This document shows, one piece after another, positions 24,347 through 27,300 of a DNA stretch of 64,000 bases (position 1 is its first letter; the number at the start of each line of letters is the position of its first letter). Location of the stretch: contig JBPOFY010000012.1 in assembly GCA_051252375.1 (NCBI GenBank), positions 10,675-74,674 on the forward strand, read 5' to 3'. Made by a program: the position numbers and the translations under genes. The DNA comes from Opitutaceae bacterium (lineage in GTDB: Bacteria; Verrucomicrobiota; Verrucomicrobiia; Opitutales; Coraliomargaritaceae). The notes under the pieces are model-generated. The model was given only the letters and a program-made list of their open reading frames with translations, was not told the origin of the DNA and made no database searches.

Positions 24347-27300
24347 TCATTGCAGAAATCCTGCTGTCACGCTGTCTTTGGCCTTCTTCAGTCCTGCGAC
24401 ATCACCTTGATGAAGGAGCTGTCCGCCAGCATCGCCACCGTTGGGACCGATCTCTATGATATAGTCGGCGTCGGCGATGACTTCGAGGTGATGCTCGATC
24501 ACGATGACGGTGTGGCCTTTATCGACGAGGCGGTGGAGAAGTTCGATGAGACGCTCGACGTCGGAGAGGTGGAGGCCGATGGTGGGCTCTTCGAGAATGT
24601 AGAGGTTGCCTTGTCCTTTATTGTATTGGCGCTCTTTGAAGGTGGGTTGTCCTTTGGCAAGCTCGCTGACGAGCTTGAGGCGCTGGGCTTCGCCGCCGCT
24701 GAGGGTGGGTGAGTATTGCCCGAGCTCAATGTAGCCTAGACCTGTCTCGACCATTAGCTGCATGAGGCTACTTAGCTGAGTATGGAAACTAAAGAACTCG
24801 ACCGCTTCTTCGAAACTCATTTTCAAAACGTCGGCGATGGATTTCCCGTTCCAGCGCAGCTCGTCAAGTTCGGCGCCGTAGCGACGCCCGTTGCAGTCGT
24901 CGCAGGTCACATAAGTGTCGGGCATGAAGTTCATTTCGAGCTTCACACGTCCTGCGCCTTTACAAGTCTCGCAGCGACCGCCTTTGGTGTTGAAGGAAAA
25001 TGTGCTCTTCGTATAGCCGCGCATGTTGGCTTCTGGAAGCTTCGCAAAGATGTCGCGGATGATGTCGAAGGCGCCGATGTAGGTGGCGGGCGTCGAGCGC
25101 GGTGTTTTGCCGATGGGGGACTGGTCGACCTCAATTACTTTCCGAATGCTTTCGGCGTTGTGCAACGCCTTGAAGGTCGAACTTCCAACGTCCAACTTCG
25201 AACTTTGAATTGCTTGAGATGCTTTACCCTTATTCGATGTTGAGCGTTCAGCGTTCGATGTTCGACGTTCCTTCGCGACTAAATCTTTGGAAGTCAGTTT
25301 AGGCTGTTTCGCGTCAACGGCTGCTTCGACCAACGGTTTAAGCAAATCGCGAATCAGGGTGCTCTTGCCTGCTCCGGAAACGCCGCAGACTGTGGTGAGG
25401 CGTTGCTTGGGGATTTGGACGTCGAAGCCTTTCAGGTTTCTCAATGCCGCGCCTTGGAGAGCGATCCAGTTTTCGTTGCCTTTCTTTTTACGTGGGCTCC
25501 ATGCGGCGGGTAGTTCGCGATGGCTGCCGCGTAGCGGGTGGGTCATTGCTTTGCGAAGATACTTCCCGGTGAGTGAGCGTTTGGACTTTTTGATCTGACT
25601 GATCTTACCGCTGGCGACGATCTCACCGCCGTGGACCCCCGCGGCGGGACCGAGGTCAATAATCTGGTCGGCCTTGCGCATGGTGGCTTCGTTGTGCTCA
25701 ACAACGATGAGTGTGTTGCCGCGGTTGCGAAGCTGTTCCATTGAGGCGATGAGCTTCTCGTTGTCGCGTGCGTGCAGCCCGATGGAAGGTTCGTCGAGGA
25801 CGTAGAGCACGCCGGAGAGGTTCGAGCCGAGTTGGGCGGCCAGGCGTATGCGTTGCGCTTCGCCGCCAGAGAGCGTGGCTGTGGCGCGGTCGAGTTGTAG
25901 GTAGTCGAGGCCGACGCGATCCATGAAGCGCATGCGTTCTTCGATCTCGGGAAGTAACTCCGCCAATACCGTTTCACTGCGTGTGTCGGTTTTGATCTGC
26001 TTTAGTGTGGCGAGTAGATTAGACGGTGTTAAGCTGAGGAGTTCGGGAAGTGAAACGGAGGTGGGAACGTTGGACGTTGAGCGTTCTTTTAATGGGAGTC
26101 TGACCGAGCGACTGAGCGGATTGAGGCGTGCACCTTGGCAGTCCGGGCAGGCTTCACCGTCTTCAAAGTCGTCGATGTGATCTTGAAGCGGATTCTCTTC
26201 ATCGCTGGCCATCCAATCAAAGAGTTGTCCGTAGCCTCGACAAGTGGGGCACCAACCGCGTGGGCTGTTCCATGAGAAGTGCTTTGGGTCGAGCTCGGGG
26301 AAGGCTTCACCGGTGGTCGGGTCGGTGCGTTTTGTGGAAAGCCAAGAAACAACTTCGCCCTTGGGTGTCAGAATGAAGGCACTGCCTTTACCTAGTCTCA
26401 AAGCCTCTTTCAGGCTTTGAGAAATGACTAATGACTGATGATTAATAGATAATGGGGTAATGACGAGATCGATGTCGTGCTCTTTGTAGCGATCGAGCTT
26501 TTTGAAGTTGTTGAGGTGGACGATTGTGCCGTCGATACGGAGCATCTCGTAGCCGTGGTCGCGGGCCCAGTTGGCGAGGGGTTCGTGGTGACCTTTGCGT
26601 CCGCGGATGAGTGGCGCGCAGAGGAGGAGGTTCTTATGTTTTGAAGCTTTGAGGTTTTGAGGTTTTGCGTGCTCGGCGAGGATGGTTTTTAGGCGTTTTT
26701 GTAGCGCAGCTTCGGATTGGCTGACGACGGCTACACCGGATGTAGGGGAATGTTGGATACCAATACGGGCGTAAAGTAGGCGTAGGTATTGCGCGACTTC
26801 GGTGATGGTGGCGACGGAGGACTTTCGCGTGCCTTTGGTGACGCGTTGCTCGATGGCTACCGTCGGGGCGATGCCATGTAACTCGTCGACATCGGCGCGC
26901 GGCATTTGCTCTACGAATTGGCGGGCGTAGGCCGACATGCTTTCCATGAAACGGCGCTGGCCTTCGGCAAAGATGATATCGAAGGCTAGGGAAGATTTAC
27001 CTGAGCCCGATACACCGGTGATCACGGTCATCTTGTTGTGAGCGATCTCGCATGAGACGTTCTTTAGGTTGTGCTCGCGGGCGCCGCGAATGATTAAGGA
27101 TTGGGAGAACGTTGAACGTCCAACGTCCAACTTCGAATCTTGACGGAGGTCTGCCGGAGATGGCGCAGCAATATTATAAGAGGACTGTGATTGGGCTACT
27201 GCTAGTTCATTCGACGTTGAATGTTCGACGTTGGACGTTGGACGTTCCCCAAGCGCTTCGCGCAGATAGGTGGCGGTTACGCAGTCGGTTTCTGCGATTT

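What the first reader, a model, noticed from the sequence alone, without database searches (positions are those of the whole stretch)
25172..25274. In-frame family A element inside UvrA module 2; the 7-nt periodic arms make it nearly frame-independent
A 103-bp palindrome (GAAGG...CCTTC) is translated as [33 protein letters not shown]. It lies just upstream of the conserved [15 protein letters not shown] block. Because the arms repeat with period 7 (coprime to 3), every reading frame yields the same 7-residue periodic peptide (ER.TSN. / LDVGRSTF). The core heptamers GTTCGAC, GTTGGAC and their complements contain no stop trinucleotide in any phase on either strand (checked by hand). Such an element can land in an ORF without creating stops and only needs a length compatible with the frame. 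In A1, A2 and A3 the first arm is read as (K/G)ER.TSN. In A1, A3 and A4 the second arm is read as SKL(D/N)VG(R/S)STF.
Basis: partly seen in the sequence, partly recalled or inferred. Interest (0 to 1): 0.65.

Follow-up and report, generated by a model that had tools for sequence, protein, structure and literature searches.

The report
Translated hairpin repeat inside a uvrA gene
A roughly 100-base hairpin-forming repeat made of 7-base units sits in frame in a floppy surface loop of the DNA-repair protein UvrA of a marine Opitutales bacterium; this is a new sequence variant of a known phenomenon (Rickettsia RPEs, REPs in Opitutus uvrA genes), not a new kind of system.

Summary
Window 25172-25274 is an imperfect, heptamer-periodic inverted repeat. 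It is read in frame as [34 protein letters not shown] inside a 1932-aa fused double UvrA (24347-30145, minus strand).

The insert lies between the Walker-A helix and the Q-loop strand of the last ATPase domain. Solved UvrA structures have no residues there, and AlphaFold2 gives pLDDT 34-52 against 82-92 for the flanks. The gene looks intact.

Orthologues from other Opitutales carry the same element, with a homologous loop, at the same site. A relative about 95% identical has an 84-nt in-frame deletion of its interior. That same relative still has a full element where the window keeps only a remnant (26064-26090).

The frame-independence idea is only partly supported:
- The arithmetic holds for the arms.
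- However, 50.4% of all heptamers are stop-free in six frames.
- Whole copies have stops in 3-4 of 6 frames.
- Paired elements from other genomes have no more open frames than genomic background.

In-frame palindromic repeats in uvrA of Opitutae were already published in 2013. I read this copy as a largely neutral, translated hairpin repeat trapped in a tolerant loop. It is a new variant of a known kind and of moderate interest.

The parts
25172..25274 (-). Family-A element of the finding. Arms are 25172-25210 and 25232-25270, made of heptamers GTCSAAC / GTTSGAM. The loop is 25211-25231. It is translated in frame as residues 1624-1658 of UvrA (KERRTSN...SSTF).
24347..30145 (-). Host gene: fused double UvrA of 1932 aa, two complete UvrA modules, with module 2 at residues 1015-1932. 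All ATPase and zinc-finger blocks are intact. Orthologues of 1817-2078 aa are found throughout Opitutales.
27104..27250 (-). Second full family-A copy, with a 65-70 nt loop. It forms part of the linker between UvrA module 1 and module 2 ([14 protein letters not shown]...[10 protein letters not shown]). The hairpin is well preserved (RNA -57.5 kcal/mol, z -6.6).
26064..26090 (-). Remnant of a family-A copy (KERSTSNV, three heptamers) at UvrA residue ~1352. A ~95%-identical relative and many orthologues carry a full element here. The uninserted state in other orthologues is KLHTKKGDTLSL.
47915..48056 (.). Family-A copy outside uvrA. It starts 4-9 nt after the stop of an aminotransferase gene (48060..49217, minus strand). 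It overlaps the doubtful 5' extension of an S4-domain ORF (47536..47979, minus strand). RNA fold -46.1 kcal/mol, z -5.8.

Best explanation
The element is one copy of a dispersed, hairpin-forming repeat family. Its two inverted arms are short arrays of the heptanucleotide GTTSGAM (complement KTCSAAC) around a variable loop.

An ancestor of these marine Opitutales acquired a copy in the codons for a surface loop of the last ATPase domain of a fused double UvrA. That loop lies between the Walker-A helix and the Q-loop strand. The loop tolerates extra residues, and the arms happen to contain no stop codons. The insert is therefore simply translated as a ~34-residue disordered stretch, and the gene stays functional (inferred from conservation, not assayed).

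Since then the copy has been inherited vertically. It has been kept hairpin-like in most lineages, probably by arm-to-arm or copy-to-copy gene conversion (inferred). It has been repeatedly eroded or lost by in-frame deletions across the hairpin, and one such loss is seen directly in a close relative.

I see no evidence that the peptide or the hairpin does anything for UvrA. The high density of such repeats in uvrA is best read as a selection filter. Only insertions in a few tolerant loops survive, and once inside a gene only in-frame deletions can remove them.

What is shown: the anatomy, the in-frame reading, the position in the fold, the vertical inheritance and the polymorphic deletion. What is inferred: the mode of spread, the gene conversion and the neutrality.
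For: Multi-copy family.
- Shared arms and arm ends (GGGAAC...TTGAAT / ATTCAA...GTTCCC) occur at four window sites, one of them outside uvrA.
- Further contigs at the same depth (~76x) in the source metagenome also carry the arms.

Insertion relative to solved UvrAs.
- In 9gxk_A, chain residues 695/696 are adjacent, while the query has 38 extra residues.
- In 2r6f the corresponding gap is 13 residues, against 52 in the query.

Predicted structure.
- The AF2 model of module 2 has mean pLDDT 81.7 and pTM 0.73.
- Only two segments fall below 50, and one of them (617-640) lies inside the insert (610-644). The flanks score 82-92.

Gene integrity.
- One ORF of 1932 aa is 89% identical to its closest orthologue.
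- Walker, signature and zinc-finger columns are invariant across 41 aligned sequences.

Vertical inheritance.
- Loops at this site are homologous between species. The window has AAGGGTAAAGCATCTCAAGCA and L125 has AAGTGTAACGTCACTCAAGCA. L121 and L123 also share a loop.
- By peptide signature, 19 of 118 orthologues carry both arms and 18 carry one arm.

Hairpin retained in most orthologues.
- z-scores are -7.3, -4.9, -4.9, -5.5 and -3.7. It is decayed in the window (-2.8) and in L125 (-0.8).

Turnover.
- Contigs from three runs of three studies carry an 84-nt deletion (25181-25264) that leaves KERSTF.
- The same relative keeps the 27-kb copy and has a full element with an 18-nt loop at the 26-kb site.

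Other real proteins carry the same heptamer tracts in frame: a YfbK/VWA protein, a PBP1, two AMP-binding enzymes and an exosortase.

Precedent: in-frame REPs in both uvrA genes of Opitutus terrae, and RPEs in Rickettsia genes (PMC3733652, PMC10969869).
Against: - No transposase, target-site duplication or fresh insertion event was seen, so mobility is inferred only from the dispersed copies.
- Hairpins remain nearly perfect in species whose UvrA is only ~75% identical. That is more than neutral drift predicts. It needs either gene conversion (not shown) or selection on the structure.
- Family-A tracts are far denser inside uvrA than in the flanks. At least 20 tracts lie in 52 kb of nine uvrA genes, against about 5 in ~207 kb of flanks. 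The loci were chosen for having the element, so this comparison is biased. A pure tolerance filter may still not explain it fully.
- Different repeat families occupy the very same site in other orthologues: a (CCCCACT)4 tract in L122 and a GTAG REP dimer in L126. This hints at targeting or replacement rather than random insertion.
- There are no expression or activity data.
Confidence: 0.6

Rival explanations
1. The hairpins are kept in uvrA because they do something. They might act as mRNA structures that slow ribosomes at domain boundaries of a 1932-residue multi-domain protein. They might act as DNA or RNA sites for a regulator. Or the peptide might serve as a selected flexible linker.
For: - Hairpin stability is retained in most orthologues at this site, with z-scores from -3.7 to -7.3.
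- The copies sit at domain or module junctions: the inter-module linker, and the stretch between the Walker-A helix and the Q-loop.
- Density is much higher in uvrA than in flanking DNA.
- DNA-repair genes are over-represented among REP-bearing genes in other bacteria (PMC3733652).
Against: - By peptide signature, 81 of 118 orthologues have no family-A arm at this site. The closest orthologue (89% identical) has an unrelated tract there.
- A ~95%-identical relative has deleted the interior of the element.
- The window copy itself is degraded to 69% arm complementarity.
- The peptide is predicted to be disordered.
- Unrelated repeat families substitute at the same sites.
Confidence: 0.13
2. The element is not mobile. 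The arms are heptanucleotide simple-sequence repeats that expand and contract in place by replication slippage. The inverted partner arises by template switching across a nascent hairpin. The 'copies' are therefore convergent products of a mutational process.
For: - The number of heptamers per arm differs between orthologues at the same site, for example 2 against 5 units.
- Tracts of 3 to more than 17 units, and unpaired tracts, occur in many phyla.
- Alternative registers shifted by 7 nt still pair at 22-23 of 39 positions.
- A different heptamer tract, (CCCCACT)4, occupies the same site in L122.
- Heptanucleotide repeats are reported as the commonest long SSR class in prokaryotes (Mrazek 2007, as cited in PMC4679880).
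Against: - Copies at unrelated loci share non-periodic arm ends (GGGAAC and TTGAAT/ATTCAA) as well as the heptamers.
- In one Desulfobacterales genome, several copies share a conserved interior, as a transposed unit would (L021, L037).
- In a coding region, single-unit slippage is a frameshift and should be purged.
Confidence: 0.15
3. The period-7 architecture is what lets the family colonise ORFs: any frame gives a harmless periodic peptide, so the element is adapted to, or pre-adapted for, landing in genes.
For: - The arithmetic is correct, and the core heptamers are stop-free in six frames.
- 42% of 203 arm tracts are open in all six frames, against 15% of controls.
- Both orientations are found translated in real proteins, as TSNVE-type and LDVGRST-type peptides.
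- At different uvrA sites the right arm is read in different phases relative to its end (STFDVP against STFP).
Against: - Half of all heptamers share the property.
- Whole elements have no more open frames than background: 2.5 against 2.79.
- The window copies have stops in 3-4 of 6 frames.
- Most tracts are outside genes.
- GTAG REPs with no heptamer periodicity colonise the same uvrA gene equally well, at 27519-27593 and 28770-28844.
Confidence: 0.1
4. The uvrA gene is a decaying pseudogene, and the repeats are debris in a dead ORF.
For: Five repeat-derived segments lie in a single gene.
Against: - The ORF is uninterrupted over 5.8 kb.
- E-values to solved UvrAs reach 1e-216 per module, and all catalytic and zinc motifs are invariant.
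- Every indel seen between relatives is a multiple of 3.
- Orthologues are conserved across the order, with recD2-uvrA synteny kept.
Confidence: 0.02

Closest known systems
Intragenic GTAG/CGTC REPs, as described by Di Nocera, De Gregorio and Rocco 2013 (PMC3733652). Examples include both uvrA genes of Opitutus terrae, uvrA of Thioalkalivibrio and uvrB of Rickettsia conorii.
   Same: - Short palindromic repeats, often as inverted dimers, lie in frame in genes that encode apparently functional proteins.
- They add 20-30 or more residues.
- The bacterial class is the same (Opitutae) and so is the host gene (uvrA).
- The window's own uvrA also carries two such GTAG REP dimers, at 27519-27593 and 28770-28844.
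   Different: - Family A has no GTAG or CGTC tag.
- Its arms are 35-45 nt arrays of a 7-nt unit, not a single 6-13 bp stem.
- Its loop is long and variable (21-70 nt).
- No RAYT association is known.
Rickettsia palindromic elements, RPE (Ogata et al. 2000 and 2002, as summarised in PMC10969869 and PMC3733652)
   Same: - They are ~100-150 bp palindromic repeats.
- They are inserted in frame in unrelated housekeeping genes and translated into a conserved peptide.
- They sit at positions compatible with the protein fold.
- No dedicated transposase is known.
   Different: - The host phylum is different and the sequence is unrelated.
- RPEs are not built from tandem heptamers.
- RPE peptides are family-specific, not a frame-invariant periodic peptide.
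Heptanucleotide tandem repeats of bacteria: long SSRs (Mrazek 2007) and TAACTGA repeats of Beggiatoaceae, Cyanobacteria and Bacteroidetes (PMC4679880)
   Same: - The unit is 7 nt, in short tandem arrays with variable copy number.
- The same unit recurs across distant phyla.
- Most arrays are intergenic and close to gene ends.
   Different: - Those are direct repeats without an inverted partner.
- TAACTGA contains stops in the forward orientation.
- They are not reported as translated inserts in conserved enzymes.
Bacterial MITEs (Correia/NEMIS, ERIC, RUP, Nezha)
   Same: - They are non-coding units of ~100-150 bp with terminal inverted repeats.
- They are dispersed and able to fold.
- They occasionally form in-frame fusions with host genes.
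   Different: - No target-site duplication is seen here.
- No parent IS with the same ends was found.
- The interior is not conserved between copies in this genome.

Membership tests
Rickettsia palindromic elements (RPE) | Palindromic repeat of about 100-150 bp that can fold into a long hairpin | tested here: met
   The element is 99-103 nt with 27/39 arm complementarity. The sister copies have RNA fold z-scores of -5.8 and -6.6.
Rickettsia palindromic elements (RPE) | Inserted in frame in a conserved protein-coding gene and compatible with the fold | tested here: met
   It is read through in the 1932-aa UvrA. Solved UvrAs have no residues at that point. AF2 pLDDT is 34-52 in the insert and 82-92 beside it.
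Rickettsia palindromic elements (RPE) | Sequence membership in one of the RPE families of Rickettsia | not tested
   No RPE consensus sequences were on hand. The host is a marine Opitutales bacterium and the arms are heptamer arrays, so I do not file it as an RPE.
REP / REPIN (RAYT-associated) | GTAG (or CGTC) tetranucleotide tag at one end of a short 6-13 bp stem-loop | tested here: not met
   The arms start GGGAAC/GAAGG and consist of 4-5 heptamers. There is no GTAG head. By contrast, family B in the same gene starts GGTAGGGAC.
REP / REPIN (RAYT-associated) | Two units in inverted orientation forming a larger hairpin | tested here: met
   Left and right arms are inverted copies around a 21-70 nt spacer.
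REP / REPIN (RAYT-associated) | A RAYT (Y1 transposase) gene flanked by the repeat in the same genome | not tested
   Only 64 kb of the genome is available. Only the neighbours of uvrA and of the 48-kb copy were scanned, and none is a transposase.
MITE | Terminal inverted repeats on a 70-300 bp non-coding unit present in many copies | tested here: met
   There are three full copies and one remnant in the window. More lie on other contigs of the same genome and in related genomes.
MITE | Target-site duplication flanking each copy | tested here: not met
   The flanks of the three full copies show no direct repeat. The bases just outside the arms continue the palindrome instead.
MITE | A parent insertion sequence with the same ends | not testable with these tools
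   This needs whole genomes.
Heptanucleotide tandem repeats (long SSRs) | Three or more head-to-tail copies of a 7-nt unit, with copy number varying between loci or strains | tested here: met
   Lag-7 identity is 0.62-0.75 in the arms. There are 2-6 units per arm at the same site in orthologues. Elsewhere tracts run to 17 or more units.
UvrA (host gene) | Two ABC ATPase domains with UvrB-interaction, DNA-binding and zinc modules | tested here: met
   Pfam hits to ABC_tran, UvrA_inter and UvrA_DNA-bind. Module 2 matches 2r6f at E = 6e-216. The protein holds two complete modules.

The most novel reading that the evidence does not exclude
A few loops of the Opitutales double UvrA may be true hot spots. 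At these loops several unrelated hairpin-forming repeat families repeatedly replace one another: GTTSGAM heptamer palindromes, CCCCACT heptamer tracts, GTAG REP dimers and others. That would imply either a targeting mechanism, in which hairpin elements insert into or convert pre-existing hairpins, or selection for having some hairpin or disordered spacer at these codons of a DNA-damage sensor gene. Separately, the GTTSGAM heptamer inverted repeats seen from Verrucomicrobiota to Desulfobacterales and Acidobacteriota may form one undescribed, widely distributed repeat class with its own mobilising or binding protein.
Probability: 0.15. Interest if true: 0.75.

Novelty: new variant of a known kind. 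Interest (0 to 1): 0.45.

Why it matters
The finding adds a clean, datable example of selfish or neutral hairpin DNA becoming part of an essential-type enzyme. In this example the ancestral, full, eroded and deleted states are all visible in nature.

It extends the RPE and intragenic-REP phenomenon to a repeat built from heptanucleotide units. For such a repeat the reading frame does not change the encoded peptide.

It also reinforces an unexplained published pattern: uvrA and other repair genes collect palindromic repeats.

For annotation, such inserts should not be taken as frameshifts, inteins or pseudogene marks. The small ORFs called across intergenic copies are spurious.

Tried and rejected
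- Exact look-up of the window's UvrA in the assembly index: not on record.
- Rfam scan of the window: only two tRNAs, and nothing at the element.
- Protein-database search with an idealised element peptide: only 17 tiny hypothetical ORFs of 35-87 aa with no domains. These are spurious calls over intergenic copies. The search did not recover the UvrAs, so it says nothing about in-frame frequency. Two earlier attempts failed on parameter limits.
- RNA runs: none holds the locus. One run of unknown type holds the relative. Transcription and retention in mRNA could not be checked.
- The first arm detector called both strands, because GTCGAAC matches GTTSRAM with one mismatch. Positions are reliable, but strand labels are not.
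About 70 chance matches are expected for that pattern in 596 Gb (my estimate). Only extended tracts were therefore used, and no taxon counts are claimed.
- ORF 47513..47983 (+), which reads into the 48-kb copy, was rejected as a gene. It lies antisense to an S4-domain ORF and has an odd composition.
- Intein, intron and programmed-frameshift readings were rejected. There are no splice-like motifs, the element has the anatomy of a dispersed repeat, and all variants differ by multiples of 3.
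Full report
**Observation**

Window 25172-25274 reads GAAGGTCGAACTTCCAACGTCCAACTTCGAACTTTGAAT, then a 21-nt loop, then ATTCGATGTTGAGCGTTCAGCGTTCGATGTTCGACGTTCCTTC. It lies inside a single 1932-codon ORF on the minus strand, 24347..30145. On that strand it is read as [34 protein letters not shown], thirteen residues before [15 protein letters not shown].

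The 7-nt periodicity is strong. Lag-7 identity is 0.75 and 0.62 in the arms, against 0.245 +/- 0.08 for the window. Only four places in 64 kb reach 0.72. The arm motif occurs 13 times, against 0.22 expected.

The palindrome itself is worn. The best register pairs 25172-25210 with 25232-25270 at 27/39. Registers shifted by one heptamer still give 22-23/39. Fold z-scores are only -1.8 (DNA) and -2.3 to -2.8 (RNA).

**The family in the window**

There are three full copies and one remnant.
- 25172-25274 is the finding.
- 27104-27250 encodes much of the linker between the two UvrA modules.
- 26064-26090 is a three-heptamer remnant, read KERSTSNV.
- 47915-48056 lies outside uvrA. It sits just after the stop of an aminotransferase gene and overlaps the doubtful 5' extension of an S4-domain ORF.

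The copies share the heptamer arrays and the non-periodic arm ends (GGGAAC outside, TTGAAT/ATTCAA at the loop). They do not share the loop. No flanking direct repeat is visible. Rfam has nothing at these positions.

**The host gene and the insertion point**

The ORF is a fused double UvrA. Pfam finds ABC_tran, UvrA_inter and UvrA_DNA-bind. Module 2 alone matches solved UvrAs at E = 6e-216.

In the alignment to 9gxk_A, chain residues 695 and 696 are adjacent, while the query has 38 extra residues (module-2 residues 609-646). In 2r6f the corresponding gap is 13 residues, against 52 in the query. The site lies between the Walker-A helix of the C-terminal ATPase domain and the strand that carries the Q-loop.

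An AlphaFold2 model of module 2 was built from 41 sequences (mean pLDDT 81.7, pTM 0.73). It has only two segments below pLDDT 50, and one of them (617-640) lies inside the insert (610-644). The ten-residue blocks through the insert score 52, 34 and 40, with 82-92 on either side.

It does not. The pseudogene reading is also untenable:
- The ORF is unbroken.
- The catalytic and zinc columns are invariant.
- The recD2-uvrA synteny is kept.
- Every length difference seen between relatives is a multiple of three.

**History of this copy**

The gene has orthologues of 1817-2078 aa throughout Opitutales, including Coraliomargarita, Lentimonas and Puniceicoccaceae. The window organism comes from seawater metagenomes.

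In an alignment of 118 of these proteins, about ten short sites are hypervariable. At the finding's site, 19 proteins carry both family-A arm peptides and 18 carry one, by peptide signature.

At the DNA level the loops at this site are homologous between species. Window and L125 differ at a handful of the 21 loop positions, and L121 and L123 share another version. This points to one old insertion inherited vertically, not repeated landings.

In most of these species the hairpin is far better preserved than in the window. RNA z-scores are -7.3, -4.9, -4.9, -5.5 and -3.7, against -2.8 in the window and -0.8 in L125. These UvrAs are only about 75% identical. That retention needs either gene conversion (between arms, or from other copies) or selection on the structure. 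I favour conversion but did not show it.

**Turnover seen directly**

Contigs from three metagenomic runs of three different studies carry a close relative, about 94-95% identical in the flanks.
- In that relative, 25181-25264 is missing. The deletion is 84 nt, or 28 codons, between TCGA repeats at the base of the hairpin. It leaves GAAGGTCGA|ACGTTCCTTC, read KERSTF.
- The same relative keeps the 27-kb copy.
- At the 26-kb site it has a complete element: arm, an 18-nt loop ATGGTTTGATTTGTTCTT, then arm. The window has only the remnant there.

More distant orthologues have the full element at both sites. Both short forms are therefore derived deletions, one in each lineage. At the 26-kb site the uninserted ancestral state is also visible (KLHTKKGDTLSL), alongside full elements and footprints such as KERRTLNVPNSVSL.

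**The frame-independence idea**

The arithmetic is right. Because 7 mod 3 is 1, the three frames of a perfect array are shifts of one another. They give the same heptapeptide repeat: VERRTSN for GTCGAAC and VRRSTFD for its complement. GTTCGAC and GTTGGAC contain no stop in any phase on either strand.

But the property is ordinary and does not extend to whole elements.
- 8264 of the 16384 possible heptamers (50.4%) are stop-free in all six frames as tandem repeats.
- Common variant units (GTTGAAC, GTTGAAT, GTTCAGC) and the loop-proximal TTGAAT carry TGA or TCA.
- The three full window copies have stops in 3, 4 and 4 of six frames.
- Among 203 arm tracts from 119 loci of other genomes, 42% are open in all six frames, against 15% of length-matched controls.
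- Twenty complete paired elements average 2.5 open frames, against 2.79 for length-matched segments of the same loci.
- At most 46 of the 203 tracts (23%) lie inside long open stretches. This is an upper bound that includes obvious antisense artefacts.

So the arms are frame-neutral, but the element is not. Selection still removes most genic insertions. Non-periodic GTAG REP dimers sit in frame in the same gene (27519-27593 and 28770-28844). Periodicity is therefore not needed for this lifestyle. A single-unit slip (7 nt) would frameshift the host gene.

**Wider distribution**

The motif scan returned extended GTTSGAM tracts, often as inverted pairs with loops of 7-196 nt. They come from Verrucomicrobiota, Planctomycetota, Acidobacteriota, Bacteroidota, Desulfobacterales and others.

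Five of six tested host ORFs are genuine proteins with the tract in frame: a YfbK/VWA protein, a class-A PBP, two AMP-binding enzymes and an exosortase. Both orientations are translated.

**Density in uvrA**

In the window, three of the four family-A sites and both GTAG REP dimers lie in uvrA, which is 9% of the sequence.

In eight orthologous loci with 10-kb flanks, family-A tracts lie almost only in uvrA. At least 20 tracts fall in 52 kb of uvrA, against about 5 in roughly 207 kb of flanks, four of them in one locus. I chose most of these loci because they carry the element, so this comparison is biased.

At the same codons other orthologues carry unrelated repeats: (CCCCACT)4 in the closest relative, a GTAG REP dimer in L126, and several other repeat-like peptides.

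A filter explanation is possible. Few loops tolerate inserts, and inside a gene only in-frame deletions can remove them, so genic copies outlive intergenic ones. It may not be the whole story.

**Comparison with what is known**

In-frame palindromic repeats are established in two settings.
- RPEs in Rickettsia are summarised in PMC10969869.
- GTAG and CGTC REPs are described in PMC3733652. That paper explicitly reports both uvrA genes of Opitutus terrae, uvrA of Thioalkalivibrio and uvrB of R. conorii as interrupted by REPs. It also notes an excess of DNA-repair genes among REP-bearing genes.

Heptanucleotide tandem repeats are a known abundant SSR class, and TAACTGA repeats recur across phyla (PMC4679880). 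I found no description of an inverted-repeat element whose arms are GTTSGAM arrays.

Family A fails the REP tag test and the MITE target-duplication test. It cannot be called an RPE by sequence. It works like these elements without being a member of any named family.

**Verdict**

The most likely account is a dispersed heptamer-armed hairpin repeat, translated as a disordered loop of a functional double UvrA, inherited vertically and eroding by in-frame hairpin deletions. It is a new variant of a known kind, of moderate interest. The open question is why uvrA loops collect such repeats.

Noticed in passing
window 27519-27593 and 28770-28844 (minus strand, UvrA module 1): Two 75-nt copies, 83% alike, of a second palindromic family. 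Each is an inverted dimer of a GTAG-headed stem-loop (GGTAGGGACGGCTG CCCT CAGCCGTCC ...). They are translated in frame as [24 protein letters not shown] and [24 protein letters not shown]. They look like the GTAG REP dimers reported in Opitutus terrae uvrA genes (PMC3733652).
   Followed up: partly
window 6167-6285 (intergenic gap 5829-6818): Another heptamer-periodic inverted repeat with a different unit (GTTAGAA / TTCTAAC). Arms are 33 nt and 76% complementary, and lag-7 identity reaches 0.72 or more at 6247-6288.
   Followed up: no
window 8929-9026 (intergenic, between ORFs ending at 8874 and 9142): A palindrome, TGGAGGGCAATGCTCCGTCATTGCCG...CGGAAACGACGGAGCGTTTCCCTCCA. One frame reads EGNAPSLP. 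The same kind of peptide (MEGRAPSRP...GNDRALPS, VEGNAPPLP...GNDGALPS) is inserted at UvrA residue ~1352 in orthologues P0001, P0003 and P0049.
   Followed up: partly
window 29533-29574 (minus strand, UvrA N-terminal part): A tandem 21-nt direct repeat (GGAGTGGGGAGTGAAGAGCGG / GGAGTGGGGAGTTGAGATCCG), translated as ...[13 protein letters not shown].... It resembles the CCCCACT-type heptamer tracts seen in orthologues.
   Followed up: no
L122, about 14786-14818 (uvrA of the closest orthologue P0001), and L126, about 15134-15206 (P0002): At the exact codons of the finding, P0001 has a (CCCCACT)-type heptamer tract read PTPHSSLSTTF. P0002 has a GTAG-headed REP dimer (GTAGGGGCGTTGCTTGCCGACGCCCG...CGGGCGTCGACAAGCAACGCCCCTAC). 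Unrelated repeats occupy the same loop in different lineages.
   Followed up: partly
window 47536-47979 (minus strand): An S4-domain (Hsp15-like) ORF. Its first 24 codons (MNPEQSHSKLNVGRSTFDVPSVPS) are encoded by the loop and arm of the 48-kb family-A copy. The Pfam S4 match starts at residue 25, so the true start is probably downstream, or the element may supply the start codon.
   Followed up: partly
window 46024-46117, 23778-23850 and 50062-50232: Further intergenic inverted repeats of other families. These are a TAATC-rich palindrome, an AT-rich one, and a perfect 18-nt pair 135 nt apart. Intergenic palindromes occur about once per 8-10 kb in this genome.
   Followed up: no
L021, L037, L048, L051 (one Desulfobacterales MAG); L016; L045; L020: GTTSGAM-type heptamer inverted repeats occur in distant phyla. 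In the Desulfobacterales genome several copies share a conserved interior (AAGGTATTCTATCAGTTT ... AAAGCGCAGCGCC), like a MITE family.
   Followed up: partly
P0002 residues near Q1156-1172 (site alignment): An 8-residue tandem peptide repeat (PQNLRTSK, about 5 copies) lies at another hypervariable UvrA site. The window has one and a half units there ([11 protein letters not shown]).
   Followed up: no
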